DNA from: a virus
DNA length: 64,000 nt
Direction: 5' to 3' (one strand)
UHGV virus genome: UHGV-0200554
The notes beneath the pieces are model-generated. The model was not told the origin of the DNA and did no database searches. It worked only from the letters and a program-made list of their open reading frames with translations. Every line of letters begins with the position of its first letter. Within the stretch, counting starts at the first letter, position 1. The position numbers and the translations under genes were made by a program. This document shows, piece after piece, positions 23,254 to 62,829 of the stretch.

Positions 23254-23709
23254 TTATTCAAAAAGTAGCTCTACGTGGTGTAAAATAAGCATTAATTGCA
23301 TTAACACAATGACAAGAACTACCCAGTTGGCTTTATTATTAACAATTTTACGAATCTTTTCAGAACGTGATTCAGGTAGAGATCTCAGGATACGCTCTAC
23401 TGAACGATTCATATCACGGATAGCCATTTTAAAACTGTCCGATCCTTCATCTTGCTCCGTAACCACGTCGAAAGCACAGTCTTTAGCGTTACCTCCAGAA
23501 CCACGAGTCACAATGAGTCGATACATTGACACAGAATAATGTGTATTCGACTCAGCGTCATAGATGCTGAGAACTTCTTTGGTATGGTCAATTGCTGATG
23601 AAAGTTTAATCGCACCAGCTGTCGTCTCAATTTTACCAGCCTCAAGGAGCATTAACCAATGCTTTTTATCCAGATTCTCAAGACTAGATCTGACGTACTT
23701 CACAAACAT
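23254..23709 (-). CDS. hypothetical protein with C-terminal TM (151 aa)
   Basis: ORF; C-terminal hydrophobic segment. Confidence 0.5.
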   Translation of the reverse strand: MFVKYVRSSLENLDKKHWLMLLEAGKIETTAGAIKLSSAIDHTKEVLSIYDAESNTHYSVSMYRLIVTRGSGGNAKDCAFDVVTEQDEGSDSFKMAIRDMNRSVERILRSLPESRSEKIRKIVNNKANWVVLVIVLMQLMLILHHVELLFE

Positions 23710-25861: not shown

Positions 25862-26140
25862 TTACCATGTCAACATCAAAAACACAAATACAGCATCTTT
25901 TTCTGGATTCATCCCGATCACATCCACAGATATACCACCAGATCTTAGGTCAGCTATCATGTGAGGAATGTAATCTGACAGATGCTCAGGTATTTTCAGC
26001 GTGAATGAGCAGCCAAAGAAGCCTGCAACTGCCTTTTCTTTGGCTGTAGCCACAACTGCATCATAAAGCTCGTTCATCTCTTTAGGAAGCGTTACAGGAG
26101 CTTTCATGGCCAGGTTGTGTAGCGTATCTCTTGCGTTCAT
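25862..26140 (-). CDS. hypothetical protein (about 92 aa)
   Basis: Track ORF trimmed to second ATG with start-stop overlap. Confidence 0.4.
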   Translation of the reverse strand: MNARDTLHNLAMKAPVTLPKEMNELYDAVVATAKEKAVAGFFGCSFTLKIPEHLSDYIPHMIADLRSGGISVDVIGMNPEKDAVFVFLMLTW

Positions 26141-26658
26141 TATTCTGGTCCTATCCACATGAATGGTGGAAGTTTCAGCAGGTCCTGTTTATCCCACACA
26201 AAGAAGGCATACGCCTGACCATCAGTTCTGCCGTTCTCCTGGAAGGATGGACGCTTGGCAATGGTGATTATCGTTGTGGGTTGGTGGGTTTGCCACCACT
26301 CATAACGTGTCTTTGACTCAAGAAAATTCAGACGAAGTAGCATGATCACCACATCAGCATCACTCAGACCTTTCTCAATAAACTCTTGAGCTTTAGAGAA
26401 GGGCGGGTTGGTCACAATGCAGTTAACATGTGGGTAATCTGTTTTCAGATAGTCCACACCTTCCTGAATTTCACCCCAGGCTGAACCTAACGGCATATTG
26501 CTGTAGAACGGCCCTGTTGCACTGTTTCTGCACGGCTCCATGAACGTGAAGTGGTCAGGGAAGTCAATCAGTTCGAATAGTGCATCCGCTAAATATTGTG
26601 GGGTGACATATTCATCATAGGGTTTACGTTCACTATCTGGCTTGCGAGCACAGGTCAT
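26140..26658 (-). CDS. Putative phage Dam-type DNA N6-adenine methyltransferase (172 aa)
   Basis: NPPF motif (IVTNPPFSKAQEF) in a small protein typical of phage Dam family. Confidence 0.55.
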   Translation of the reverse strand: MTCARKPDSERKPYDEYVTPQYLADALFELIDFPDHFTFMEPCRNSATGPFYSNMPLGSAWGEIQEGVDYLKTDYPHVNCIVTNPPFSKAQEFIEKGLSDADVVIMLLRLNFLESKTRYEWWQTHQPTTIITIAKRPSFQENGRTDGQAYAFFVWDKQDLLKLPPFMWIGPE

Positions 26659-26675
26659 AAATAAATCTCCAGATC

Positions 26676-26698
26676 AAAAAAGCCCTCCGAAGAGGGCT
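26676..26698 (-). terminator. Intrinsic terminator with UUCG tetraloop (leftward)
   Basis: Minus strand AGCCCTC-UUCG-GAGGGCT followed by TTTTTT. Confidence 0.6.
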
Positions 26699-26712
26699 TA
26701 GCGTTATGTTAA

Positions 26713-27768
26713 TCAGCCCAGCAATTTATCATGAAGATCTTTGCCAGCTTTGATGATTTTTTTAACCAGACGACCACGGTTGTTGTCTTTAACTTCAATT
26801 TCTTCACCAGTTAAAGCACCGTGTAACTGAACCAGAATCTCACGGAGTTCTGCAACAGTGAAGTCTTTCAGCTCTTCTTCACTTAACGTTGCAACGTTCA
26901 GTTTAAAGTTACGACCATCGTCCATCAGCAGATTCAGATAAACATCTTTCGGTTTATCTTCTTCCTTGTCTTTAGCTTTCGCTTCATGGATAGCTTTTAC
27001 CAGTTCTTCCATAGAATTGCATTGACGAACTTCCGGTAAACCTTCTTCACCTAACAAGCCACGGTCTTTGTTGAAAGGCAGAGCCTGCTGACCAGCCTGA
27101 ATACGTGCAATATTCTCTTCGTCAAGGATGATTGCACCAGTGCGTTCAGCCATGTCTTCTTCGTTCAACCAGACCTGACCACCACCTTTAATTTTCGCAA
27201 TCTCTTCTTCAGTCAGAACACCAGTGTACATTTTATCAATCAAGCGATCAAAATGACGTTTGAAGAAAGTTACCTGATCGTGCATGTTAGCACCGTCACC
27301 ATAAGTCCCGCCCTGGTAGTTATGGAACATGAATTCACAGTTCGGAGACAAAGTACGTTCTTTTGCACCTAACCACAGAATAGTACCAGCAGAGCAGACC
27401 ATACCTTCAGCGTGAGTAACTACATGGCCCTGAGATTCACGCATTGCTTGGAGATAAGCCATAGCAATGTTAACGCAACCCCCTGGGCTATTGATGATAA
27501 TTCTAATAGAATCATCAGGTTGCAGCATACGAATCAGTTGTAAACGAGATAGATGGTCCTGAAGGTCTTCTAAGTCATCAATATAGATGACATGATCCAT
27601 AACCGGAGCAGGATAGCTGTATGTTTCCATGATGCCACCAGGCATACCGAACATTTTGTTCTGCATCGGTTCTACTGCTTTCTCGTTGCGTTCAGGCTGA
27701 CGACGATTGTTATAAAATTTGTTCATGATAGCGATCCTTATGTGAGGGTAGACTTGTTGTAGCGTCAC
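26713..27768 (-). CDS. ClpP-like serine peptidase with ~130-aa C-terminal extension (351 aa)
   Basis: INSPGG, GMVCSAG (Ser) and MFHNYQGG (His) motifs align with E. coli ClpP blocks. Confidence 0.7.
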   Translation of the reverse strand: MTLQQVYPHIRIAIMNKFYNNRRQPERNEKAVEPMQNKMFGMPGGIMETYSYPAPVMDHVIYIDDLEDLQDHLSRLQLIRMLQPDDSIRIIINSPGGCVNIAMAYLQAMRESQGHVVTHAEGMVCSAGTILWLGAKERTLSPNCEFMFHNYQGGTYGDGANMHDQVTFFKRHFDRLIDKMYTGVLTEEEIAKIKGGGQVWLNEEDMAERTGAIILDEENIARIQAGQQALPFNKDRGLLGEEGLPEVRQCNSMEELVKAIHEAKAKDKEEDKPKDVYLNLLMDDGRNFKLNVATLSEEELKDFTVAELREILVQLHGALTGEEIEVKDNNRGRLVKKIIKAGKDLHDKLLG

Positions 27769-27780
27769 TGCATCACCACC

Positions 27781-28098
27781 TTATCTTGCTACAACGTATT
27801 TGTAAGTGTTGTCGTTCTCTGGAATTCCTGCAATGTCAACAATGTACCAGATTACACCGTCTATGTCAACCTTTTCTCCAACAAATTTTACTTCACTTGT
27901 GAAATACTCCATAGACTCTGTGAACATCTTGTAAGACGAATTTGTCAAGATTGCCACACTTTCTACAGAACCGTCAGGATTCTTAATCCATGCATTACGT
28001 GTTCCCTTATTGGCTACGATATAACCTTCACCTTTAGGGACAAGGCAATACACTTTGTTTAGTCTTTCTTGCAATGATAGGAATCTCTTTTCTGCCAT
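27781..28098 (-). CDS. hypothetical protein (105 aa)
   Basis: ORF; promoter at 28125-28153. Confidence 0.5.
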   Translation of the reverse strand: MAEKRFLSLQERLNKVYCLVPKGEGYIVANKGTRNAWIKNPDGSVESVAILTNSSYKMFTESMEYFTSEVKFVGEKVDIDGVIWYIVDIAGIPENDNTYKYVVAR

Positions 28099-28124: not shown

Positions 28125-28153
28125 ACTATAACAGAAACGATGAGGGTTGTCAA
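28125..28153 (-). promoter_or_regulatory. sigma70 promoter (leftward), extended -10
   Basis: Minus strand TTGACA, 17 bp spacer, TGTTATAGT. Confidence 0.5.
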
Positions 28154-28221: not shown

Positions 28222-29010
28222 TTATTCAGATACCGGAGTCCAGATTTTATTTTTACGGTCTTCAATAAGGTTAAGAGCAATCTGGCGACCAATACCAGAA
28301 CGGACTACATCATCTGGACTATCGAAGTCTACCATACCAACTTCTTCGTCCGGGTGACGAGTGAAGAAGTCAGTAACCCATGCAAGGCCAGAACGACCTG
28401 CAATATCGCGTTGCGAGTTATCACCCATGATTACCAGCGTTGCCTGGTCTGAAACACGAGTGATGATCGACAACATTTCTTCCGGTGAAGTTTGCTGTGC
28501 TTCGTCAATCAGTACAAAGCAGCGTTCGTCGAAAGAACGACCACGAATTGATTCAACTTCGCAAATCTCAATGCGGCTGTTCTGACCATCACCAAGCATA
28601 GCTGCAAATGCACCACCACCAACCTGACGGCGAATAGTGTCCATCATGCTACGCAAATAAGGCCAAAGTTTCTGCATCGCATTACCAGGTTTAAACCCTG
28701 AAGTTTTACCAGTCTGAACATATGGACGTGCAACAATGATTTTATCAATCTCATTTTTGCGTAACTGTTGACCAGCAAAAGCTGAAGCCATGAACGTTTT
28801 ACCGCTACCGAACACACCGTTTACGATAACAATCTTCTTAGTTTGTAAGAAGTGCAGATATAACCCTTGTTTTTTGTTGAGAGGACGGATAGCAGGAGCA
28901 TTATACTCACGTTCTTCAGCAAATTTTTCCGCTGCGTGTCTCATACGCTCGTTTTTACGAGCTTCTTTAGCATCTTCACGCATACGACGAGTTTCGCGAC
29001 TTCTACCCAT
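28222..29010 (-). CDS. phoH: PhoH-like ATPase (262 aa)
   Basis: Walker A GVFGSGKTF, Walker B VLIDEAQ, PhoH-family length and layout. Confidence 0.85.
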   Translation of the reverse strand: MGRSRETRRMREDAKEARKNERMRHAAEKFAEEREYNAPAIRPLNKKQGLYLHFLQTKKIVIVNGVFGSGKTFMASAFAGQQLRKNEIDKIIVARPYVQTGKTSGFKPGNAMQKLWPYLRSMMDTIRRQVGGGAFAAMLGDGQNSRIEICEVESIRGRSFDERCFVLIDEAQQTSPEEMLSIITRVSDQATLVIMGDNSQRDIAGRSGLAWVTDFFTRHPDEEVGMVDFDSPDDVVRSGIGRQIALNLIEDRKNKIWTPVSE

Positions 29011-52058: not shown

Positions 52059-52134
52059 GCCCCGTTAGTTCAAATGGAAGAACAGTGGCCTTCTAAGCCA
52101 TAGGTTACAGGTTCGAGTCCTGTACGGGGTGCCA
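52059..52134 (+). tRNA. tRNA-Arg (anticodon UCU)
   Basis: Hand-folded cloverleaf: 7-bp acceptor, GTTC/GAAC D-stem, anticodon loop CTTCTAA, T-loop TTCGAGT, encoded CCA. Confidence 0.85.
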
Positions 52135-52566: not shown

Positions 52567-52968
52567 GTGCCAGCAGTACTTGCATTCCTGATAAAATATA
52601 AGCGCGTGATAAAATGGACTATCGCGGCTGTCTTACTGGTTGTAGCCTGCGCTGGAGTGCACAGTTGGTACAACACCCAGATACAAAATGCCTACAACGA
52701 AGGGGTCGCTGTAACAGAGCAGAAATGGGATAAACTGATGATGCAGCAGAAGCTACAGGCCAACCAGACGAAGTTGGAACACGCTTACGAAGTCAGAGAG
52801 CTTGAGCAAAAGCTGGCTAACATGCAGAACGCCATGAACGCTCCTGGAGCTTTTGGTGGGGCTACACAACAGCAGTTCCAGTCATCTCCAGAAGGGCAAC
52901 AGAACCGGATCCCAGATAAAGTGATCGATATCTACAACGAAAGTATTAACTCGGAGGTGCAGCAATGA
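52567..52968 (+). CDS. i-spanin-like protein (Rz-like; 133 aa)
   Basis: GTG start after ggagg; N-terminal TM then Gln/Glu-rich helical region; overlaps next gene by 4 nt. Confidence 0.5.
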   Translation: MPAVLAFLIKYKRVIKWTIAAVLLVVACAGVHSWYNTQIQNAYNEGVAVTEQKWDKLMMQQKLQANQTKLEHAYEVRELEQKLANMQNAMNAPGAFGGATQQQFQSSPEGQQNRIPDKVIDIYNESINSEVQQ

Positions 52969-53261
52969 GGTGGTTACTTGCATTAGCGATTGCACTCACG
53001 TTTTCTATGGCCCTGGTAGGTTGTAGCTCACCTAAAAGTACGCCAGTTACAGTTGCACCGCAGAAAGTTGAACAACTTGCTGTAGAGCCTCCTGCGGCAG
53101 CTATGATCCCACCAGCAATAGCTATCCCCTTGGTGAAAGGTGCACCAGATGCGGATAACTCTGCAATTATGAGGCAGAACAATCTCTCCTGTAGCAATGA
53201 TCGTGCCAAATTAATCATCTTGCAGGATTATGTAAAATCTTTATTCAATAAGGAGAATTAA
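52965..53261 (+). CDS. o-spanin-like lipoprotein (Rz1-like; 98 aa)
   Basis: Signal peptide with lipobox LVGC; proline-rich mature part. Confidence 0.5.
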   Translation: MRWLLALAIALTFSMALVGCSSPKSTPVTVAPQKVEQLAVEPPAAAMIPPAIAIPLVKGAPDADNSAIMRQNNLSCSNDRAKLIILQDYVKSLFNKEN

Positions 53262-54374
53262 TGGCTAAAATGTATGGCCCATGCTCCCGTAAACAACAAA
53301 TGATTCTGGAAAATGATGCCGACTTCCTGATCATTGGTGGGGCAGCGGGTTGTTTGTCAATGCGACATGAGGTGATGACACCTAACGGGTGGATCAGAAT
53401 ATCGGAATGGGATGGTCAAGATATCCTCCAGTTTGATAAAGAAACTGGTAAGGCCATGTTTATCCAGCCTGAAGAGTTTGTTAAGCTGGAATGCGACAAA
53501 CTAACCAGGATTGTGCAGGATGGTATTTGTCAGGAATTATCCGACGAGCACACAGTTCTGTACGTCCCAGAAGACGGAACAGCTTACGGTACACTTAATT
53601 TCGGAGAAGTGGCTGAACAGTATGCTAACGGTGAGTTGGCAATGCGTATGCAGACCACGTTTGTGAACATGGGTGGTACTGGCCTTGGCATTTCTGACGA
53701 AGAGCTGAAAGAAAGGGCAAGATATTACAAATTCACAGATGAGTGGTATAATTGTGATCGTCGTCAGTTGTTGCAGATCTGGTATGAGATTTACCTGAAC
53801 GGTAATGATCCCCATGCCTACGTTGTTCCAACGAAAGAACAGGCTGATTTCTTGCAATACCTCGGATCATCTTTAGGTTTCAACGCACAGATCTTCTTCG
53901 AAGAAGGTTACAAAGTTGTGTTCTCTAATGAACGTGCAGGTACGATTGCTCTTAATAACGATGCAACGTTCGAAGAGTTTGAGCCGGAAGATGGTTACAA
54001 ATATTGTTTTGCTACCACAACAGGCTATTTTATCACCAGACTGGAAAACTGCATTGCAGTGACTGGTAACAGTGGTAAATCCTTTCTTCTACAGCTTCTC
54101 CCACTAAAGATGATAGATGACCCCAACACTTCTGTGGTGATGTTCCGTAGGACAACTCCACAACTGGAAGGTGAAGGTGGTCTGTGGCCTAAAGCACTGA
54201 GTGTGTATCTGGATCTTCCTGAGTACATGAGGCCGAAATTCAGAGAGAAAGACCATAAGTTTACTTTTCCATATTATGATGCAAAGACGGGCAAATGGAA
54301 TAAGAAAAGAGACGGAGCAGTAATCAAATACTGCCATATGGAATACGTCCAAGATAAGCTGAATCATCAAGGGT
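53261..54374 (+). CDS. Terminase large subunit, exon 1 (contains in-frame intein)
   Basis: Walker A GGAAG..SGKS split by intein; ORF ends at TAA at proposed 5' splice site. Confidence 0.7.
53351..54070 (+). mobile_element. Intein (240 aa) inserted in terminase P-loop
   Basis: Starts CLSMRH (Cys1), block-B-like DEHTV, ends TGN followed by Ser; removal restores GGAAGSGKS. Confidence 0.65.
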
Positions 54375-54901
54375 AAACAAACCTGCCCTTCGTGCCTAAT
54401 TCGGTGAAACTCCTTGACAAAAGGACAATACCGAGCTACGGTTAAAGGATTAGTTGAAACCGAGTGTAACGACTATCCCCGATGAGTGTAGGGGAGTAGA
54501 ATCACAAGCGATTGGTGATCCAAACGGCACGCCAAGGAGGGAAGAGCTAGTCTGTTCCACATGGTAACATGTGGCGGGTGTCTTAGCACACCGCGTCGGA
54601 GTAGCGATCCGGCGGGACAAAAGTGGAATATACTTTAATATGTTTTGATGAGGGTTAACTGGTAGCTCTCGTAAAACCTCCCTAATTGCGGGGAAATCTT
54701 TACTATTGACACCACCAACCTATTATGGTAACATAATATTGGCTTCGGAGAAATACCGAAGGTATGGTAATAGCGTGTTGATTTAGATAATCCGCAGCGA
54801 AGCATCCTGATAGGATGTGTGCTCAACGACTATCGCTTACGGGCGTTAGGGCCAAGCGGCTGGGGAAACCCACAGTCTTTTAAGACTGCCGAAACGGGAG
54901 G

Positions 54902-55195
54902 ATGGGAATGTGTAAAACTAAAAAATGTGTAGATTGCCAGAGAGTCCTACCTCTTGAGGATTTCTTTTTATCTTCTAAGAGTAATGATGGGTACTCTGGT
55001 ACATGCAAGGAATGCTATATGTACTACAGAAAGAATGGATCTCGTAGAAACAAGGATATGGTTAAGAGAGATGATGCAGCAGCGTTTATTCAAGATTTGC
55101 TAGAGAAAGGTGAGCTTTTTGAATGCAAATCTTGTCATAAAAGTATGCTCGCTGACAATTTTACACAAAACGTGATTATGGTAGGGTATATCTAG
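54902..55195 (+). CDS. Intron-encoded homing endonuclease, N-terminal zinc-finger part
   Basis: CxxC pairs (CVDCQ, CKEC, CKSC); ends 18 nt before catalytic ORF in another frame. Confidence 0.55.
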   Translation: MGMCKTKKCVDCQRVLPLEDFFLSSKSNDGYSGTCKECYMYYRKNGSRRNKDMVKRDDAAAFIQDLLEKGELFECKSCHKSMLADNFTQNVIMVGYI

Positions 55196-55212
55196 TCACG
55201 GGCAGGTGTAAA

Positions 55213-55497
55213 ATGTGTGAGAAGTTCTATCAGCTTGAGAAGAAATTTCACATAACAAAAGACGAATATTTTCGTCTACTCTCAGATCAAGATTATAAAT
55301 GTGCCATTTGCGGGATATCACTTGATGAGTATAGGTCGCAAGGGTACAGAGATTTCTTTAGTGTTGATCATGACCATAAGACTGGCGCTGTAAGAGGTTT
55401 GCTTTGTGATAAGTGTAACAGAGCTTTAGGTTTTTTCCAGGAGGATGAGGAAACTCTTCTTAAAGCGGCAGAGTATTTACACACTCATAAGATATAG
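55213..55497 (+). CDS. Intron-encoded Endonuclease VII-type homing endonuclease, catalytic part
   Basis: VDHDHKTGAVRGLLCDKCNRALG matches Endo VII motif; stop overlaps intron S element. Confidence 0.7.
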   Translation: MCEKFYQLEKKFHITKDEYFRLLSDQDYKCAICGISLDEYRSQGYRDFFSVDHDHKTGAVRGLLCDKCNRALGFFQEDEETLLKAAEYLHTHKI

Positions 55498-55581
55498 TCT
55501 GGTCTGCATGGAGACATGCAGCTGCCACATGGTGGCGGGGCAAGAGTAGCGACCTTGCCCGAACACAAACGACACAGTTCG

Positions 55582-56693
55582 ATTGGGAGCAAATCGACTA
55601 CCTGATTTCTCGTATGAGGTCGAAATCGAAATACTCTTCACGGATGGTGATCAGCTGTAACCCGGATTCTGAACACTATTTAGCCAAACTGGTTCGTTGG
55701 TGGCTTGACGACGAGGGCTACCCAGATGAAAGCAAGTGTGGCGTTAAGCGCTATTTCATCCGTAGGGATGGGGAATTTATCTTCGGCGATACGCCAGAAG
55801 AGTTGATCGAGAAGTATACCTATGTTAACGGCAAAGGTGTTGAGATAATCCCAAAACCACTCTCTATCGCTTTTATCGGTGCAACAATCCACGATAACCC
55901 CATCTGCTTGCGTGATAACCCAGAATATCTTGCATTCCTGGAAGGTCTGCCAGAGCTGGAAAAAGCACAACTCCTCTACGGTAACTGGTTCGCTAAGCCT
56001 GAAGGTGCAAACTATTTCAGTCGCACATTCTTGAAAGATGCGGATCATGTCCCCCTCGGAGCAGTTTCTGTAAGAGCATGGGATAAAGCTGGTACAGAAC
56101 GTACCTCTGGCAACAAATTCCCCGACTATACAGCCAGTATCAAGGTCAGTAAGGATAGTGATGGTTACTACTACATCTCCGGTGACTATTGCCCTGAAAA
56201 CGTAGATGATGGCAGATATTCTACGGGCTTGCACGGTAAGTTCTGCAAGAAAGCTGGGGAACGTGATGTTATTATCAAGAAACAGGCAGAGTTTGATGGT
56301 GAGGACTGCGTAATTGTCTTCTCTGTGGACCCCGGTCAGGCAGGTAAGAGTGAGTTTCTTACTTCATCTCGTAAACTTCTTGCCGGAGGGTTCAGGGTAG
56401 AAGAAGACCCAATGCCGTCTAACAAATCAAAACTCACCCGTTTCTCCCCGTTTGCCAACCTTGCCCAACAAGGGATGGTGCGGCTTGTCCGGTCAAGTTT
56501 CGACCCGGATACACTGGAAGCATTTTTGACAGAGCTGGAGAAATTTAACGGCGAACGGTCAACCTTTAGCCGTAAAGATGATTGGGCTGACTCCATTGCT
56601 TCTGCAATTAACTACCTTGAAAAAGAGGAAGTTGCTATGCCATGTGTTATTCCGAAGATTGTTTCACCCTCTATGTATAAGAGGATGATTTAA
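55582..56693 (+). CDS. Terminase large subunit, exon 2 (nuclease domain)
   Basis: In-frame continuation from proposed 3' splice site; followed by UUCG-hairpin terminator. Confidence 0.6.
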
Positions 56694-56793: not shown

Positions 56794-58353
56794 GTGTCCA
56801 AGAAAAGCCGTAGGAAAAACAACGCAGCAGCCAAAGCGAGGGCTGTGAAAAAAGCTGGAAATCAAGATGCCCAGGTGCACAATGTTCGTCTGGGAGAGAT
56901 TGGTTCCGGTGCACTGGCTCAGATCCAATTTGAATCTCAGCAGATGATGGTTGAGGAGTTGCGTTGGCCCAACCTTATCGCTACCGTAGAGACGATGAAA
57001 TGCGACTCAACAGTAGCTACCGCTCTGGATTCTAAATATGTACTGATCACCAAAGCCTTCAACGATTTCAAAATTCTCTGTAATGAAGAGAGTGAAGAAT
57101 CTAAGAAAGCAGCAGCATTTATCGACTATGCCCTGCGTAATCTCTCTAATCAGCAAACACTTCGTGATATTGCAAGAAGTGCAGCCACCTTTAATGAATA
57201 CGGCTTCTCAATATTTGAGAAAGTTTACCGTCGTGAACAGGAAGGGGAGTACGCTGGTAAATTAGTTATTGACAAGTTTGCATTCAGACCTCAAGCGAGC
57301 CTGTCCCGCAGTAACCCGTTCCAGTTTGATAAAAATAGTCGTAAACTTGAAGGTATATGGCAGTCACCGAATGCGTTTGTTAATTTCAAACGTAATTCAT
57401 ACGCTGGCCCACTACTTTCTGCTCCGGCAAACTTCAACGGTGAGGAGATTTTCATTCCGGCTAAGAAAATCATGATCATGACTCTTTCCGGTACAGAGTC
57501 CAATCCGGCAGGTGTTTCACCTATGATTGGTTGTTACAGATCCTTCCGTGAGAAAGTGCTGATCGAAAACCTGGAAGTGGTTGGTTGCTCCAAAGATCTT
57601 GGTGGTGTGCTTGAGCTGAAAATACCGTCCAACATTCTGAATAAAGCAAGTATCGACCCCACCTCAATGGAAGGTCAGATGGTTGCTAACCTGATGGCAG
57701 ATGCTGCAAATGCCCACTCCGGTGAACAGAGTTTCTTTATTCTCCCATCGGATCGTGATAAATCAGGTAAAGAACAGTATTCCATGGACCTGAAAGGGAT
57801 CAATGGTGCTGGTAAACAATACTCCACCAAAGATCTTGTTGATGCACGTAAGAAAGCTATCCTTGATAGATTTGGTGCTGGTTTTATTAACTTAGGTAAC
57901 GACAACGTTGGTTCTTACTCGTTGTCCGAGTCCAAACAGTCTTTACATGGTCACTTCGTTAACCGTGATATTGACATTATTGTTGAGGCTTTCAACAAAG
58001 ACTTCATTCCCCAGATGCTGGCGCTGAACGGTATCTACCTCTCCAATGAGGATATGCCGAAACTCAAACCAGGGTTGACTGAAAAAGTTGACATGGAAGA
58101 GTTCTCCAAATTCGTACAGCGTATTGGTGCAGTTGGTTATCTGCCTAAAACTCCGGGTGTTATCAATAAAATCCTTGAAGTTGGTGGTTTTGACTACCGC
58201 GTTGATGAGGATATTGACACTGAAGAGTTAATGCAAATACTGGGTCAGGATGTAAGTCGGTCAGGTGACGGTATGGCGGCGGGGACCAACGGTAATGGCA
58301 CGTCCAGAATGTCATCCACACGCGATAATTCTGTATCAAATATGGAAAATTAA
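56794..58353 (+). CDS. Putative portal protein (519 aa)
   Basis: GTG start after gaggg RBS; size and position directly after terminase. Confidence 0.55.
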   Translation: MSKKSRRKNNAAAKARAVKKAGNQDAQVHNVRLGEIGSGALAQIQFESQQMMVEELRWPNLIATVETMKCDSTVATALDSKYVLITKAFNDFKILCNEESEESKKAAAFIDYALRNLSNQQTLRDIARSAATFNEYGFSIFEKVYRREQEGEYAGKLVIDKFAFRPQASLSRSNPFQFDKNSRKLEGIWQSPNAFVNFKRNSYAGPLLSAPANFNGEEIFIPAKKIMIMTLSGTESNPAGVSPMIGCYRSFREKVLIENLEVVGCSKDLGGVLELKIPSNILNKASIDPTSMEGQMVANLMADAANAHSGEQSFFILPSDRDKSGKEQYSMDLKGINGAGKQYSTKDLVDARKKAILDRFGAGFINLGNDNVGSYSLSESKQSLHGHFVNRDIDIIVEAFNKDFIPQMLALNGIYLSNEDMPKLKPGLTEKVDMEEFSKFVQRIGAVGYLPKTPGVINKILEVGGFDYRVDEDIDTEELMQILGQDVSRSGDGMAAGTNGNGTSRMSSTRDNSVSNMEN

Positions 58354-58420: not shown

Positions 58421-58849
58421 ATGTCTACAACTGAAGAGATGATTTCATACGAGATCATCTACGAACCAAACACTAAAGATGCTCACGGCGAGTGGATGTC
58501 CGAAGAAACTCTTCGCAAAGCGAAAGAAAGCTGGGACATGGCATACGCCGCTGGCATCGCCAGAGAAAACCTTTTCCATCTCACCTCCACTGAAGCATTC
58601 ACTATCGAAAAAACCTGGATTCAGGAAGAACTTGATGTGGTTGTTGCAGAAACCGGACAACCTATCAAGGCTGGATCATGGGTAGCTAAAGTGAAATACA
58701 ATAACGAAGCCTTGTGGGAAGCTAAGAAAGCTGGCATTGTCGGTGGACTAAGCATCCAGTGCACAGGCCATGTTAACGAAGAGACAGGTGAGATTACAGA
58801 TATCAATTTCGGGGCCACAATCGTGGAAAATGAAGAGGGCGATGAATAA
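58421..58849 (+). CDS. head-module protein, function unknown (142 aa)
   Basis: RBS gaggt; between portal and scaffold-like gene. Confidence 0.55.
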   Translation: MSTTEEMISYEIIYEPNTKDAHGEWMSEETLRKAKESWDMAYAAGIARENLFHLTSTEAFTIEKTWIQEELDVVVAETGQPIKAGSWVAKVKYNNEALWEAKKAGIVGGLSIQCTGHVNEETGEITDINFGATIVENEEGDE

Positions 58850-59904
58850 TGGCAGACACCATCAAAATTCAAGAGAAGGGCATTGCACTGTGCCATGAAG
58901 CACAAGGTTTCAGTGCCAATAACCGTCCGATCTCTTTGCTGATGAAAAGTGATCTTGAACCAGAACAGTTGACAGCTGATATTGTCAAAGCTCTGCGTCA
59001 GGTCACGGTGGATCTTAGTTTTGAAGAATACCTCATGAGATTCTTCGGTTTGTGGGCCTATGATGCTAAAAAATTAGCCGCACTTCTGGGGTTTGAAATC
59101 GAAGAGGAAGCCTTCGCTAGAGAACACCCAGACAATGATTGGGCGCAAGCCGACGCTGAAATGGTTCGTGAATGGCTGGAAGAAGTAAACTCCACAGTAA
59201 CGATCCACAAAGCTGCTCAGGAAGGTAAAGACCTTTCTTTAGTCGAACAATATGAACTTCTGAAAGCACAGCAGAAGTTCGAGGAAGTAACCGCTGATCT
59301 CTTCGATGCAGAAGGGAACCTTATTAAAGCGGTCGAAGACCCAGTAGAACCTGAGGTGAAACATGAACCTCAACCGGAGCCGAAACCGGAACCTGTACCT
59401 GAAGAAGTAGTTCCAGTTAAGCCTGTGAAAGAAGTTCCTGAAAAAACCCCAGCTAATACTGATAACAATGAACCCGCAAATATCGAGGGGAATACGGTGG
59501 AAGATGTAACCAAATCTCAAGAGTACATTGACCTGTTGAAACAGTTTGAAGCATTGCAGGCTAAACAAGCAGAAGCCGATGCAATCATCAAAGCTCAGGT
59601 TGAACTCAAAAAAGCAGAAATGCTTGAAAAAGCTAAAGCTCTTAGCTTCGTAACTGAAGAAGATCATGAAATGCTGGTTGACTTCATGTTAGAAAAAGCT
59701 AATGAAGCAGTTGTCGCACTTCTTGAAAAAGCTCAGGCACGTATTGCTGAACTTGAAGCGGAAGTTAAAAAAACCAAAGAAGAATTCGCAACCGCCGAAC
59801 ACGGTAAAGACGGCGAACCTATTGTGGATGATGTTCAAAAATCCGCAGAAGAAATCCTTGCAGAAAACGTAGCGAAAGCTCTCGCTGCAAAAGCTAACAA
59901 ATAA
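58849..59904 (+). CDS. Putative scaffolding protein (351 aa)
   Basis: Pro/Glu-rich linker (EPQPEPKPEPVPEE) and long Ala/Lys/Glu helical C-terminal half. Confidence 0.45.
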   Translation: MADTIKIQEKGIALCHEAQGFSANNRPISLLMKSDLEPEQLTADIVKALRQVTVDLSFEEYLMRFFGLWAYDAKKLAALLGFEIEEEAFAREHPDNDWAQADAEMVREWLEEVNSTVTIHKAAQEGKDLSLVEQYELLKAQQKFEEVTADLFDAEGNLIKAVEDPVEPEVKHEPQPEPKPEPVPEEVVPVKPVKEVPEKTPANTDNNEPANIEGNTVEDVTKSQEYIDLLKQFEALQAKQAEADAIIKAQVELKKAEMLEKAKALSFVTEEDHEMLVDFMLEKANEAVVALLEKAQARIAELEAEVKKTKEEFATAEHGKDGEPIVDDVQKSAEEILAENVAKALAAKANK

Positions 59905-61404: not shown

Positions 61405-62829
61405 GTGTTCTATCCAGTTGAATATGATCCGAAATTACGGATTTTCAATAACCAGGTAGACTTCTACGAATTTCTGGCAGAAGCTAATCCAGAAATCAAC
61501 GTAGGTCTGTCTGCGTTATTACCACCAACCGAATTTGTTGTTGGTGAAAAACACTTCCCATGCAGAACGATTGTGGATTTCTTCGAACAGATTGCAGAAC
61601 AGACTGGATTGCCAATCGACACGGAAGCCTCCACTATCCGTATGGGTGTAATTCTTTTGTTCTTCACAGAAGACTTGGGTGAGAGCATCTTAACACTTCA
61701 AAGCGGTGATGCTCATATTACGCTTACCCCTTCCGTGTTTAAAGAGGTAGATGCTGCTTCCAAGGTTTCAGTGGCAAAAGGTCATCTGTGGTATCCTGAA
61801 GAAATGCCCAGCAAGGTTACCATAAATGATGAGCAATGTGATGTTGTTTATGCAGAGGGTACTCAAACTTTCACCATTGGGTGGCCTAAGAAACGTTCTC
61901 AGGTTGTAAATCCAGGTCTGACTTCCGAACCGATTGTAAGAGAAGAGTGGGAAGAGAGTCCTAATACGCTACCAAATGAAAGAGCACTTAAAGAAGACGG
62001 TACTTTAAAAATGGGAACGGGTGTAAAAGGCACTTATGCTACAGTTACCAGTGATGGGGTAATTGAATTAGCACTCATTCCAATGATACCTGGTCGTAAA
62101 GTATTAGGTCCTGCTGGCGATGATGGTATTTTTACTAAAACAGAAAAAGGCGACGTTTCTTGTTTCTTTGGTGTGACTAGTTTGAAATATCCGTTAAAAG
62201 ATGTAATTGGTTTATATGATTCCATTACTTTAGATGTAATTAGTGATGGTACACCTATACAAAAAATGGACTTACAATTACATAATGGCGGTTGGTATGA
62301 CAAAAACGGAGAAATGTTAGAGGGTACTTACCTTGACGAATATACTATTCAAGAAGCCACTCGTGTATCATTCTATGCAGAAAGGGGTAGAGAACATAAG
62401 TTTGTTTTAAGTGCTACCTCTGGAGAAAACACGGAGAGCATAGAAGTTACCGTTATTGATGAGTACGTAGAACCGGATCCTGAACCAGAGCTGGAACCAG
62501 AGCCGGACCCGGATACAGGAGTTGACCCAGGACCTGATCCAGAATCATTACCTGAGCCAGGACCCACTGTGGGAGACAACGGTGAAACTACAGGGCCTGC
62601 TGAATCACAGGGTGCGGAGCCAGCTATAATGACAATGAGTATGGAAGAAGCTGCTCCCGATAGCGTCGATGCCATCCTACAGCAGGCTGCTGTTTTAGAA
62701 GACGAAGCAGACAAGAGTGGCTCTAAAGTGGCTCTTGAAGCATTCGCCAAACAATACGGTGTGAGCTTAGCTCGAAATAAAACTTTCGCCAATATGATGA
62801 AAGATTTCGAAGCAGCTCTTAGAGCATAA
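61405..62829 (+). CDS. Structural protein with Ig-like segment and acidic Pro-rich repeat (474 aa)
   Basis: GTG start after aaggagac; EPDPEPELEPEPDPD repeat. Confidence 0.5.
   Translation: MFYPVEYDPKLRIFNNQVDFYEFLAEANPEINVGLSALLPPTEFVVGEKHFPCRTIVDFFEQIAEQTGLPIDTEASTIRMGVILLFFTEDLGESILTLQSGDAHITLTPSVFKEVDAASKVSVAKGHLWYPEEMPSKVTINDEQCDVVYAEGTQTFTIGWPKKRSQVVNPGLTSEPIVREEWEESPNTLPNERALKEDGTLKMGTGVKGTYATVTSDGVIELALIPMIPGRKVLGPAGDDGIFTKTEKGDVSCFFGVTSLKYPLKDVIGLYDSITLDVISDGTPIQKMDLQLHNGGWYDKNGEMLEGTYLDEYTIQEATRVSFYAERGREHKFVLSATSGENTESIEVTVIDEYVEPDPEPELEPEPDPDTGVDPGPDPESLPEPGPTVGDNGETTGPAESQGAEPAIMTMSMEEAAPDSVDAILQQAAVLEDEADKSGSKVALEAFAKQYGVSLARNKTFANMMKDFEAALRA

What the first reader, a model, noticed from the sequence alone, without database searches (positions are those of the whole stretch)
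26713..27768. ClpP-like peptidase with a long C-terminal extension, located far from the head module
The N-terminal ~220 aa carry ClpP-family blocks (INSPGG, Ser in GMVCSAG, His in MFHNYQGG), followed by ~130 aa of charged helical sequence. Phage ClpP-like proteins are usually prohead proteases beside portal and capsid genes; this one is on the opposite strand, ~30 kb away, between a Dam-type methyltransferase and PhoH, and the head module has its own scaffold-like gene. It may be a displaced prohead protease or a protease with another role.
Basis: partly seen in the sequence, partly recalled or inferred. Interest (0 to 1): 0.5.

Follow-up and report, generated by a model that had tools for sequence, protein, structure and literature searches.

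The report
Non-head ClpP-like phage peptidase
This gene encodes a ClpP-fold serine peptidase that rV5-like and ICP1-like phages carry among their DNA-metabolism genes, usually next to PhoH; it is an already-annotated family of untested function and is very probably not the capsid-maturation protease, because the head module has its own.

Summary
The ORF is real: 26713-27768 on the minus strand, with the likely start at the ATG at 27726 (337 aa). It has a full ClpP fold with invariant Ser and His. It is a 60%-identical relative of rV5 gp117 (phrog_5410, "ATP-dependent protease"), in the same gene order as in rV5 and LL12.

This is an XkdF-type Peptidase_S78_2 gene (58421-58849) between portal and scaffold, homologous to ICP1 gp125 "capsid protease".

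In ICP1 RNA-seq the Clp-like homologue gp211 is "Middle-late", together with PhoH. The capsid operon is "Late".

Across about 80 divergent viral loci, this branch of the family sits among PhoH, RNR, nuclease and ligase genes. Only a separate long-tailed branch sits beside portal and capsid genes.

The "ATP-dependent" label is not supported:
- The ClpX/ClpA docking pocket is replaced by conserved polar or charged residues.
- The triad Asp is Gln.
- Curated ClpP and ClpP-related head-protease models are both failed.

The C-terminal extension is a disordered linker plus a small domain. That domain shows moderate evidence of a Rho_N/SAP-type helix-extended-helix motif.

Verdict: a new member of a known but uncharacterised family, of moderate interest.

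The parts
26713..27768 (-). ClpP-like peptidase gene. This is the longest ORF, from a GTG. The likely start is the ATG at 27726, giving 337 aa.
27067..27609 (-). ClpP-fold core including the handle helix (residues about 40-220, numbered from Met15).
   Evidence: The AF2 model has pLDDT >90 here. Foldseek top hits are all ClpP, with TM-score 0.7-0.78 relative to the target.
27391..27393 (-). Catalytic Ser codon (Ser126 in GTG numbering, Ser112 from Met15), in GMVCSAG.
   Evidence: Aligns with ClpP Ser97 and is invariant in 107/107 sequences. The codon was read from the sequence.
27322..27324 (-). Catalytic His codon (His149 / His135), in MFHNYQGG.
   Evidence: Aligns with ClpP His122 and is invariant in 107/107 sequences.
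27175..27177 (-). Gln codon (Gln198 / Gln184) at the position of ClpP's catalytic Asp171. The preceding residue is Gly where ClpP has Arg170.
26947..27066 (-). Charged linker of variable length, predicted to be largely disordered.
   Evidence: pLDDT is below 50 for residues 223-235 and low up to about residue 260. Its length varies among homologues.
26716..26946 (-). Family-specific C-terminal domain: a beta-hairpin plus helix-loop-helix. The part at about 26740-26877 resembles Rho_N/SAP-type HeH motifs.
   Evidence: The supporting evidence is moderate. Pfam hits on the domain itself are sub-threshold.
26680..26699 (-). Intrinsic terminator just after the stop codon: an 8-bp GC-rich stem followed by a T run.
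28125..28153 (-). Sigma-70-type promoter-like site (TTGACA-17-TATAGT with TG; 11/12 matches) upstream of orf105 and the Clp-like gene. It corresponds to rV5's annotated promoter P121.
   Evidence: This is a consensus match only.
27781..28098 (-). 105-aa ORF of unknown function (phrog_5456), co-oriented and immediately upstream. It is conserved only in the rV5-like clade.
28222..29010 (-). PhoH-like P-loop ATPase. This is the one neighbour that recurs upstream of divergent Clp-like genes.
26140..26658 (-). DNA methyltransferase immediately downstream. The linkage holds within the rV5-like clade.
58421..58849 (+). Comparator: the head module's own XkdF-type (Peptidase_S78_2) protease, between the portal (56794-58353) and the scaffold (58849-59904).

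Best explanation
The gene encodes a non-structural ClpP-fold serine peptidase. It belongs to a phage family (phrog_5410, with the shorter relatives in phrog_1827) that is carried in the nucleotide and DNA-metabolism module of large lytic phages, often just downstream of PhoH.

Inferred expression: it is transcribed before or apart from the late head genes. The likely unit runs from a sigma-70-type promoter, through a small ORF and the peptidase gene, to an intrinsic terminator.

Inferred action: the protein assembles into a ClpP-like ring and cleaves cytoplasmic host or phage proteins with a Ser-His catalytic pair. In the rV5-like clade the third triad position is Gln or Glu.

It does not dock ClpX or ClpA in the canonical way, because the hydrophobic IGF/IGL pocket is replaced by conserved charged and polar residues.

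In the rV5-like clade, a flexible linker carries a small C-terminal domain with a Rho_N/SAP-like helix-extended-helix motif. This domain probably targets the ring to nucleic acid or to a partner protein.

Capsid maturation is carried out by the separate XkdF-type protease in the head module.

What is shown: the fold, the residue pattern, gene order and its conservation, the presence of a head-module protease, and the expression class of the ICP1 homologue. What is inferred: oligomeric state, catalytic activity, substrates, independence from Clp ATPases, and the role of the tail.
For: Fold and catalytic residues:
- Pfam CLP_protease 1.7e-15.
- AF2 core pLDDT >90, and all top Foldseek hits are ClpP.
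- Ser and His are invariant in 107 sequences.

Known family and conserved position:
- phrog_5410 2e-128.
- About 60% identity to Vequintavirus proteins annotated ClpP or ATP-dependent protease.
- The same gene order, NrdD-NrdG-...-PhoH-hyp-Clp-MTase, in LL12 and rV5.
- PhoH-x-x-Clp in ICP1.

The head module has its own protease:
- Pfam Peptidase_S78_2 3.7e-16 at 58421-58849.
- Invariant D20, H22, H53 and S111 in 121 sequences.
- One-to-one homology of portal, protease, scaffold and MCP with ICP1 gp127, gp125, gp124 and gp122.
- ICP1 gp124 is an experimentally shown scaffold (PMC10945586).
- ICP1 gp125 is the protease the ICP1 literature assigns to procapsid maturation (PMC7567579 and PMC9040626).

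Timing: the ICP1 RNA-seq classes are 'Middle-late' for gp208-211 and 'Late' for gp122-130.

Neighbour census:
- Short or PhoH-linked relatives sit among PhoH, RNR, exonuclease, RuvC-like resolvase and ligase genes, with no head genes.
- Long-tailed relatives sit beside MCP, portal and TerL.

PhoH linkage:
- PhoH lies within 3.5 kb on the same strand in 10 of 22 clusters defined at 60% identity.
- The pairing also occurs in Curvibacter phage P26059A and Rheinheimera phage Barba18A.

Docking pocket: Y60R, F82E, I90H, M92E and F112T in 10/10 rV5-like sequences. The pocket residue list comes from 10.1101/820209.

Curated models: 38.8 bits against the ClpP equivalog cut-off of 308.6.

Transcription signals: promoter-like site and terminator.

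C-terminal domain:
- Folded in AF2.
- In 1.84 billion proteins its profile finds only its own family plus two Rho_N/SAP repeat proteins.
- hhalign probability 94%.
Against: - There are no experimental data on this protein or on any close homologue. My 10 literature searches found none.
- Gene location is not proof of a non-structural role. The window encodes a homologue (23254-23709, 40% identity) of rV5 ORF133, an abundant virion protein by MS, only about 3 kb downstream in the same block.
- The rV5 virion MS set is small, 19 proteins. The Clp-like protein not being flagged as MS-detected is therefore weak evidence. Prohead proteases are also often lost from mature virions.
- ICP1's 'Middle-late' class overlaps the start of morphogenesis, and ICP1 gp211 is only 37% identical over the core.
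- By sequence score the protein is at least as close to ClpP-related head maturation proteases (phrog_1684 1.2e-23; NF045542 55 bits) as to cellular ClpP. Descent from a head protease, and some residual head role, are therefore possible.
- The PhoH linkage is absent in Sugarland, Kassivere and pYD6-A and in most members of the largest cluster.
- Evidence for the HeH assignment is moderate. Pfam hits are sub-threshold and occur in only 2 of 30 members. The PDB profile search found nothing significant. The hhalign comparison is not independent of the search that found the repeat proteins.
Confidence: 0.68

Rival explanations
1. It is a displaced, or second, prohead maturation protease. It would be made elsewhere in the genome, enter procapsids, and cleave scaffold or capsid proteins, perhaps alongside the XkdF-type enzyme. 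The C-terminal domain would act as a capsid-targeting or scaffold-like tail.
For: - Many phage ClpP-like proteins are head maturation proteases. This protein hits several such PHROGs (phrog_1684 1.2e-23, phrog_94 3.3e-21), and its best NCBIfam hit is NF045542 'head maturation protease, ClpP-related'.
- It has Gln or Glu at the Asp position. The head-module relatives mostly have Glu there.
- A virion protein (the rV5 ORF133 homologue) is encoded in the same block.
- ICP1 gp211 is 'Middle-late', which is not early.
Against: - The canonical slot between portal and scaffold is filled by a conserved, apparently active S78_2 protease.
- The NF045542 score is far below its cut-off: 55 against 120.
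- Neighbours of this branch in divergent phages are DNA-metabolism genes, never portal or capsid genes. True head-type relatives do sit beside them.
- The ICP1 homologue is in a different temporal class from the capsid operon.
- It is not flagged as MS-detected in rV5 virions.
- The C-terminal domain resembles Rho_N/SAP motifs rather than scaffold coiled coils, and it is absent from the short relatives.
Confidence: 0.1
2. It is a true ClpP subunit, as its database name 'ATP-dependent Clp protease proteolytic subunit' implies. It would form tetradecamers that are fed by the host ClpX or ClpA unfoldases, adding to or redirecting host ATP-dependent proteolysis.
For: - A complete ClpP fold including the handle helix.
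- Conserved Ser and His.
- Annotation in GenBank records and in the rV5 paper.
Against: - The IGF/IGL docking pocket is not conserved: Y60R, F82E, I90H, M92E and F112T in 10/10 sequences.
- Asp171 is replaced by Gln or Glu, and the neighbouring Arg170 by Gly.
- Identity to solved ClpPs is about 20-25%.
- All curated ClpP equivalog models are failed by a wide margin.
- The N-terminal 30-40 residues do not resemble ClpP axial loops and are predicted disordered.
Confidence: 0.08
3. It is a modulator of host ClpP rather than a free-standing protease. A phage heptamer would stack on a host ClpP ring, as ClpP1/ClpP2 paralogues do. That would change or block host ClpXP/ClpAP activity, or the phage ring would gain its own activity only in the mixed complex.
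For: - The handle region is intact in the model.
- The Asp and its neighbouring Arg are lost, and there is no ATPase pocket. From general knowledge (not tested here), this resembles ClpP paralogues that work only in hetero-complexes, such as Listeria ClpP1 with an Asn in its triad and Pseudomonas ClpP2.
Against: - There is no direct evidence.
- Identity to host-type ClpP is low.
- Relatives in phages of very different hosts keep a canonical triad and lack the tail, which argues for an autonomous enzyme.
- Multimer modelling was not possible with these tools.
Confidence: 0.06

Closest known systems
rV5 gp117 (ORF122) and other Vequintavirinae 'ATP-dependent protease / ClpP' proteins (PHROG phrog_5410)
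   Same: - Full-length match at 2e-128 and about 60% identity.
- The same length class.
- The same C-terminal domain.
- The same gene order, PhoH - small ORF - Clp-like - methyltransferase.
   Different: - Only sequence divergence: there is no nucleotide-level match to any deposited phage.
- The window has Gln at the Asp171 position, where Vequintavirus proper has Glu.
- None of these proteins has been characterised.
ICP1 gp211 'ClpP ATP-dependent protease subunit'
   Same: - ClpP-like core, 37% identity, E = 4e-27.
- Encoded downstream of PhoH in the nucleotide-metabolism region, away from a capsid operon that has its own S78_2 protease.
- It also carries a C-terminal tail of about 130 aa.
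   Different: - ICP1 keeps a canonical Ser-His-Asp triad with a Lys before the Asp.
- Its tail is not detected by the profile of the window's C-terminal domain.
Short phage 'ATP-dependent protease' family (phrog_1827), e.g. Curvibacter phage P26059A ORF116 and Rheinheimera phage Barba18A gp072
   Same: - A ClpP-like core (1e-40 to phrog_1827).
- Frequent position just downstream of PhoH, among RNR, nuclease and ligase genes.
- The shared replacements F82E and M92E in the ATPase pocket.
   Different: About 200-235 aa with no C-terminal domain, and a canonical Ser-His-Asp triad.
Cellular ClpP (E. coli ClpP; TIGR00493; MEROPS S14)
   Same: The fold, the handle helix and the positions of the catalytic Ser and His.
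   Different: - No Asp171.
- No hydrophobic IGF/IGL pocket.
- An unrelated N-terminus.
- An extra C-terminal domain.
- 38.8 bits against a cut-off of 308.6.
ClpP-related phage head maturation proteases (NF045542; phrog_1684, phrog_94; protease-scaffold and protease-MCP fusions)
   Same: - A ClpP-like core at a similar sequence distance.
- A C-terminal extension after the core.
- Glu or Gln rather than Asp at the third triad position.
   Different: - Those genes lie beside portal, MCP and terminase genes. This one does not.
- Their tails are scaffold or capsid domains.
- The score is below the curated cut-off: 55 against 120.

Membership tests
Cellular ClpP (proteolytic subunit of ClpXP/ClpAP) | ClpP alpha/beta fold with handle helix | tested here: met
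   AF2 core pLDDT >90. Foldseek top 50 hits are all ClpP, with TM-score 0.63-0.78 relative to the target.
Cellular ClpP (proteolytic subunit of ClpXP/ClpAP) | Ser-His-Asp catalytic triad | tested here: not met
   Ser and His are invariant. The Asp171 position is Gln in the window. Across 107 sequences it is Gln in 87, Glu in 14 and Asp in 5.
Cellular ClpP (proteolytic subunit of ClpXP/ClpAP) | Hydrophobic pocket that receives the IGF/IGL loops of ClpX/ClpA (L23, Y60, Y62, F82, I90, M92, F112, L114, L189) | tested here: not met
   Y60R, Y62I/V, F82E, I90H, M92E, F112T and L114S/A in 10/10 rV5-like sequences. The residue list is from 10.1101/820209.
Cellular ClpP (proteolytic subunit of ClpXP/ClpAP) | Score above the curated equivalog cut-off (TIGR00493 and related NCBIfam models) | tested here: not met
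   38.8 bits against 308.6. All other ClpP models are also far below their cut-offs.
Cellular ClpP (proteolytic subunit of ClpXP/ClpAP) | Tetradecamer of two stacked heptamers, with ATPase-dependent protein degradation | not testable with these tools
   Needs multimer modelling or biochemistry.
ClpP-related phage head maturation protease | Gene in the head module, next to portal, scaffold or capsid genes | tested here: not met
   The gene is about 30 kb away on the other strand. That slot holds an S78_2 protease. Head-type relatives do sit beside MCP, portal and TerL.
ClpP-related phage head maturation protease | Score above the curated cut-off of NF045542 | tested here: not met
   55.2 bits against 120.
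ClpP-related phage head maturation protease | Late expression with the head genes | tested here: inconclusive
   There are no data for this phage. The ICP1 homologue gp211 is 'Middle-late' while the capsid operon is 'Late'. The promoter-like site in the window is a consensus match only.
ClpP-related phage head maturation protease | Presence in procapsids and cleavage of scaffold or capsid proteins | not testable with these tools
   rV5 ORF122 is not flagged as MS-detected in virions, but that dataset lists only 19 proteins.
rV5-type phage 'ATP-dependent protease' (phrog_5410) | Full-length profile match including the C-terminal domain | tested here: met
   2e-128, residues 36-350 on profile positions 4-318 of 323. 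The C-terminal domain profile hits all rV5-like members.
rV5-type phage 'ATP-dependent protease' (phrog_5410) | Conserved gene order PhoH - orf105 - Clp-like - methyltransferase | tested here: met
HeH-type motifs (Rho_N / SAP / HeH) for the C-terminal domain | Significant match to a family model | tested here: inconclusive
HeH-type motifs (Rho_N / SAP / HeH) for the C-terminal domain | Binding of DNA or RNA | not testable with these tools
   Needs EMSA or a similar assay.
Peptidase_S78_2 (XkdF-type prohead protease), for the head-module ORF 58421-58849 | Pfam match above the cut-off, conserved His and Ser, and a position between portal and scaffold | tested here: met
   59.7 bits against 24. 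H53 and S111 are invariant in 121/121 sequences. It is homologous to ICP1 gp125 at 1.4e-19.

The most novel reading that the evidence does not exclude
PhoH and the Clp-like peptidase could form a conserved two-gene phage system, in which a ClpP-fold ring has given up ClpX/ClpA docking. In the rV5-like clade the ring would be tethered to nucleic acid by several Rho_N/SAP-like tails. It would work on proteins bound to DNA or RNA during phage replication, for example by clearing host nucleoid or RNA-associated proteins. The PhoH ATPase might act as its partner, or act on the same substrates. This would give a function both to the long-unexplained phage phoH marker gene and to the widespread phage 'ClpP' gene.
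Probability: 0.12. Interest if true: 0.7.

Novelty: new member of a known kind. Interest (0 to 1): 0.35.

Why it matters
'ClpP' and 'ATP-dependent protease' genes are copied from record to record in large lytic phages, including therapeutic candidates of the rV5 group and the cholera phage ICP1. Papers sometimes describe them as prohead proteases or as auxiliary metabolic genes. The evidence here says that both labels are probably wrong for this branch. The head has a different protease, and the features that couple ClpP to ClpX/ClpA are missing.

The recurrent pairing with PhoH, whose role in phages is also unknown, gives a concrete and testable lead. If the two work together, that would explain two very common phage genes of unknown role. 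As it stands, this is a better-described member of an existing family, not a new kind of system.

Tried and rejected
- Megablast of the 3.1-kb region against deposited phages found no match, so all comparisons had to be at the protein level.
- The SAP/HeH assignment was tested by direct Pfam scans of the tail and of 30 family members. Only sub-threshold hits appeared, in 2 of 30 and 1 of 30 members.
- A profile of the C-terminal domain searched against PDB sequences found nothing significant; the best E-value was 0.025.
- I looked for the C-terminal domain in ICP1 gp211's tail and in every other ORF of the window and of 87 loci. It was found only in the rV5-like Clp-like proteins.
- I tested whether the methyltransferase, orf105, orf98 or orf119 travel with Clp-like genes outside the rV5-like clade. 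They do not.
- A PADLOC scan of the six-gene cluster gave nothing for the Clp-like protein, and only weak helicase-type cross-hits for PhoH.
- The rV5 virion MS table was too small to be decisive.
- A possible intein in the TerL P-loop gave no Pfam hit.
Full report
**1. The observation**

It is 351 aa when read from the first possible start, a GTG. 103 of 105 database homologues begin at the position of Met15, the ATG at 27726, which would give 337 aa. Both candidate starts have an SD-like sequence upstream, so the start is not settled. The residues before about position 40 are predicted disordered.

All the quoted motifs are there. Pfam CLP_protease matches residues 73-180 at E = 1.7e-15, 57.8 bits against a cut-off of 20.2. 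Alignment to solved ClpPs puts Ser126 (GMVCSAG) and His149 (MFHNYQGG) on the catalytic Ser and His. Both are invariant in 107 aligned sequences.

A DNA methyltransferase lies downstream (phrog_799 2.5e-59; Pfam Dam only sub-threshold). PhoH lies upstream (Pfam 4.8e-46), with a 105-aa ORF between it and the Clp-like gene.

**2. What phage this is, and whether the gene is known**

There is no nucleotide-level match to deposited phages. The protein is about 60% identical to proteins of Vequintavirus phages (the rV5 group), 46-49% identical to GAP31-like and Klebsiella relatives, and 37% identical over the core to ICP1. It matches PHROG phrog_5410, 'ATP-dependent protease', over its full length at 2e-128.

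In rV5 the homologue is ORF122 / gp117, 349 aa, annotated 'ClpP (ATP-dependent) protease subunit'. The gene order NrdD - NrdG - ... - PhoH - small ORF - Clp-like - methyltransferase is the same in the window, rV5 and LL12.

So the gene and its position are a conserved, already-annotated feature of this phage group. It is not a displacement peculiar to this genome.

**3. The head module has its own protease**

The plus-strand cluster contains, in order:
- TerL, in two pieces
- portal (56794-58353)
- a 142-aa ORF (58421-58849)
- a scaffold-like gene (58849-59904, phrog_2970)
- a decoration protein
- a lambda-gpE-type major capsid protein

The 142-aa ORF is Pfam Peptidase_S78_2, 'putative phage serine protease XkdF', at 3.7e-16 and 59.7 bits against a cut-off of 24. 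Its 120 listed homologues all carry the same domain. D20, H22, H53 and S111 are invariant in 121 of 121 sequences. From memory, not tested here, the H53-S111 spacing is close to that of the catalytic His and Ser in HK97-fold prohead proteases.

The window's portal, S78_2 protein, scaffold-like protein and MCP are homologous one-to-one with ICP1 gp127, gp125 ('capsid protease'), gp124 and gp122. The E-values are 3e-46, 1.4e-19, 3.8e-9 and 7e-59. ICP1 gp124 has been shown experimentally to act as the scaffold (PMC10945586). The ICP1 literature assigns procapsid proteolysis to gp125 (PMC7567579 and PMC9040626).

**4. Timing and transcription**

In the ICP1 RNA-seq classification, gp208 (PhoH), gp209, gp210 and gp211 (Clp-like) are all 'Middle-late'. 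gp122-130, the capsid operon including the S78_2 protease and the terminase, are 'Late'.

In the window, a good sigma-70-type promoter-like site lies at 28153-28125 upstream of the 105-aa ORF: TTGACA-17-TATAGT with an extended -10 TG, 11 of 12 matches. A strong intrinsic terminator at 26699-26680 follows the Clp-like stop codon. rV5 has an annotated promoter at the equivalent place. These are consensus matches, not proof of function.

**5. The family splits by genomic context**

I fetched 80 viral-contig loci that encode relatives down to about 25% identity. I located the Clp-like ORF in each, measured the tail after the core, and searched the flanks.

- One group has long tails of 160-500 aa. 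Its neighbours are major head protein, portal and terminase. These are genuine head-module proteases and protease-capsid fusions.
- The other group is about 200-235 aa with no tail. Together with ICP1 it sits among PhoH, ribonucleotide reductase subunits, exonucleases, a RuvC-like resolvase, DNA ligase and a Dda-like helicase. No portal or capsid gene appears.

By profile score the window's protein is closest to this second group: phrog_1827 at 1e-40, against 1e-23 or weaker for head-protease PHROGs.

PhoH lies within 3.5 kb on the same strand, nearly always upstream, in 10 of 22 clusters defined at 60% identity. The same pairing is seen in the deposited annotation of Curvibacter phage P26059A, with a 9-nt gap, and in Rheinheimera phage Barba18A, which has methylase - CLP_protease - phoH in a row plus a separate peptidase between portal and capsid.

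The pairing is not universal. Sugarland, Kassivere and pYD6-A lack it, as do most members of the largest cluster. The methyltransferase and the small flanking ORFs accompany the gene only within the rV5-like clade.

**6. Is it a ClpP in the working sense?**

The AF2 model has a confident ClpP core with the long handle helix. Foldseek returns only ClpPs, with TM-score 0.63-0.78 relative to the target. Three things differ from ClpP.

First, the catalytic Asp171 position is Gln in the window. Across the family it is Gln in 87 sequences, Glu in 14 and Asp in 5. The preceding Arg170 is Gly in all rV5-like sequences. ICP1 and the short forms keep Lys/Arg-Asp.

Second, the hydrophobic pocket that receives the IGF/IGL loops of ClpX/ClpA is replaced by conserved polar or charged residues. 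The residue list is from the ClpAP cryo-EM study 10.1101/820209. The replacements are Y60R, Y62I/V, F82E, I90H, M92E, F112T and L114S/A in 10 of 10 rV5-like sequences. The short PhoH-linked forms share F82E and M92E.

Third, NCBI's curated models are failed by wide margins. The ClpP equivalog scores 38.8 bits against 308.6. 'Head maturation protease, ClpP-related' scores 55.2 bits against 120.

So the protein has the ClpP fold and probably a working Ser-His centre. Invariance of both residues across a family at about 25-97% identity argues for retained catalysis. Nothing supports the 'ATP-dependent' part of its name.

**7. The C-terminal extension**

The extension is not simple charged helix. 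After a variable, low-confidence linker comes a domain of about 80 aa, made of a beta-hairpin and two long helices. Its pLDDT is 83-92 in both the full-length and the isolated model, and it is conserved across the rV5-like clade.

A profile search of 1.84 billion representative proteins is more informative. It finds only the family itself plus two unrelated proteins, at E = 4e-6 and 9.5e-4. Pfam shows these two are made of Rho_N and SAP repeats, at 6.8e-22 and 2.7e-20. hhalign between the domain and those repeats gives 94% probability over 39 columns, with a longer inter-helix loop in the phage domain. That comparison is not independent of the search that found the repeats.

I therefore rate a Rho_N/SAP-type helix-extended-helix motif as moderately supported. 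Nucleic-acid binding is an inference from what such motifs usually do. ICP1's tail of similar length is not detected by this profile.

**8. Most likely mechanism, and rivals**

Best explanation (0.68): a non-structural ClpP-fold peptidase of the DNA-metabolism module. It is made apart from the late head genes and acts on cytoplasmic proteins without canonical ClpX/ClpA docking. In this clade it is targeted through a C-terminal HeH-like domain. The XkdF-type enzyme matures the head.

Rivals:
- A second or displaced prohead protease (0.10).
- A true ClpXP/ClpAP subunit (0.08).
- A modulator that forms mixed rings with host ClpP (0.06).

The remaining probability is for something not considered here.

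Main caveats:
- There are no experiments on any member of the family.
- Location alone is weak evidence. The window also encodes, about 3 kb downstream in the same block, a homologue (23254-23709, 40% identity) of rV5 ORF133, which is an abundant virion protein by MS.
- The rV5 MS set lists only 19 proteins. The Clp-like protein not being flagged as MS-detected therefore says little.
- By sequence the protein is about as close to head-type ClpP-like proteases as to cellular ClpP. Descent from a head protease is plausible.

**9. Novelty and verdict**

The gene is a new member of a known, annotated but uncharacterised phage family. Four things are added here: the head module has a separate protease; the ATPase-docking pocket and the triad Asp are missing; the tail is a discrete domain with HeH-like features; and PhoH is the one neighbour that recurs across very divergent relatives.

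The most novel reading that the evidence does not exclude is a PhoH plus Clp-like two-gene system acting on nucleic-acid-bound proteins. It is speculative (about 0.12), but it can be tested directly with purified proteins and with mutants in rV5 or ICP1.

Noticed in passing
window 53261-56693 (+): The large terminase gene is split into two pieces, 53261-54376 and 55614-56693, by about 1.2 kb. The gap holds a 94-aa ORF (55213-55497) that is Pfam Endonuclease_7 at 9.4e-23, and a Cys-rich 97-aa ORF (54902-55195). This fits the intron-plus-homing-endonuclease arrangement reported for rV5 TerL. ICP1 TerL is also split by a homing endonuclease gene.
   Followed up: partly
window 53348-54070 (+): Inside the first TerL piece, the Walker A motif reads GGAAG-[CLSMRHEV...IAVTGN]-SGKS. 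About 240 aa appear to be inserted in the P-loop, as an intein would be. No Pfam family matched this stretch at E<=1, so this is unconfirmed. The TerL PHROG hits cover only residues 236-371 plus a short N-terminal piece.
   Followed up: partly
window 23254-23709 (-): A 151-aa protein with a C-terminal hydrophobic segment is 40% identical (E = 1e-26) to rV5 ORF133. The rV5 paper reports ORF133 as one of the predominant virion proteins by MS, although it is encoded in the 'non-structural' block.
   Followed up: partly
window 28222-29010 (-), and loci L003, L021, L022, L026, L027, L031, L033, L035, L039-L044, L046, L050, L059, L060, L065, L087: PhoH recurs just upstream of divergent Clp-like genes, in 10 of 22 clusters defined at 60% identity. 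In some loci the gap is only 4-220 nt. I found no mention of this pairing in the searchable literature.
   Followed up: partly
window 61405-62829 (+): A 474-aa ORF just after the capsid gene matches phrog_3259 (unknown function). Its last about 45 residues also match phrog_1051, 'minor head protein inhibitor of protease', at 1.7e-6. This could bear on how head proteolysis is controlled.
   Followed up: no
window 58421-58849 (+): The XkdF-type protease ORF is 142 aa here, but 190-245 aa in many homologues. rV5 gp63 is 190 aa and overlaps the portal gene. The difference lies outside the conserved domain and may only reflect start-codon choice.
   Followed up: no
window 52059-52134 (+) and 52567-52968 (+): A tRNA-Arg (anticodon TCT) and an Rz-like spanin gene (phrog_4297, 8e-30) lie just upstream of the terminase.
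   Followed up: no
locus L009 (IMG/VR contig of 120,938 bp; P0085 names it Escherichia phage Av-05): This relative keeps orf105 - Clp-like - methyltransferase, but no PhoH was found within 8 kb. The pairing can therefore be lost inside the rV5-like clade.
   Followed up: no
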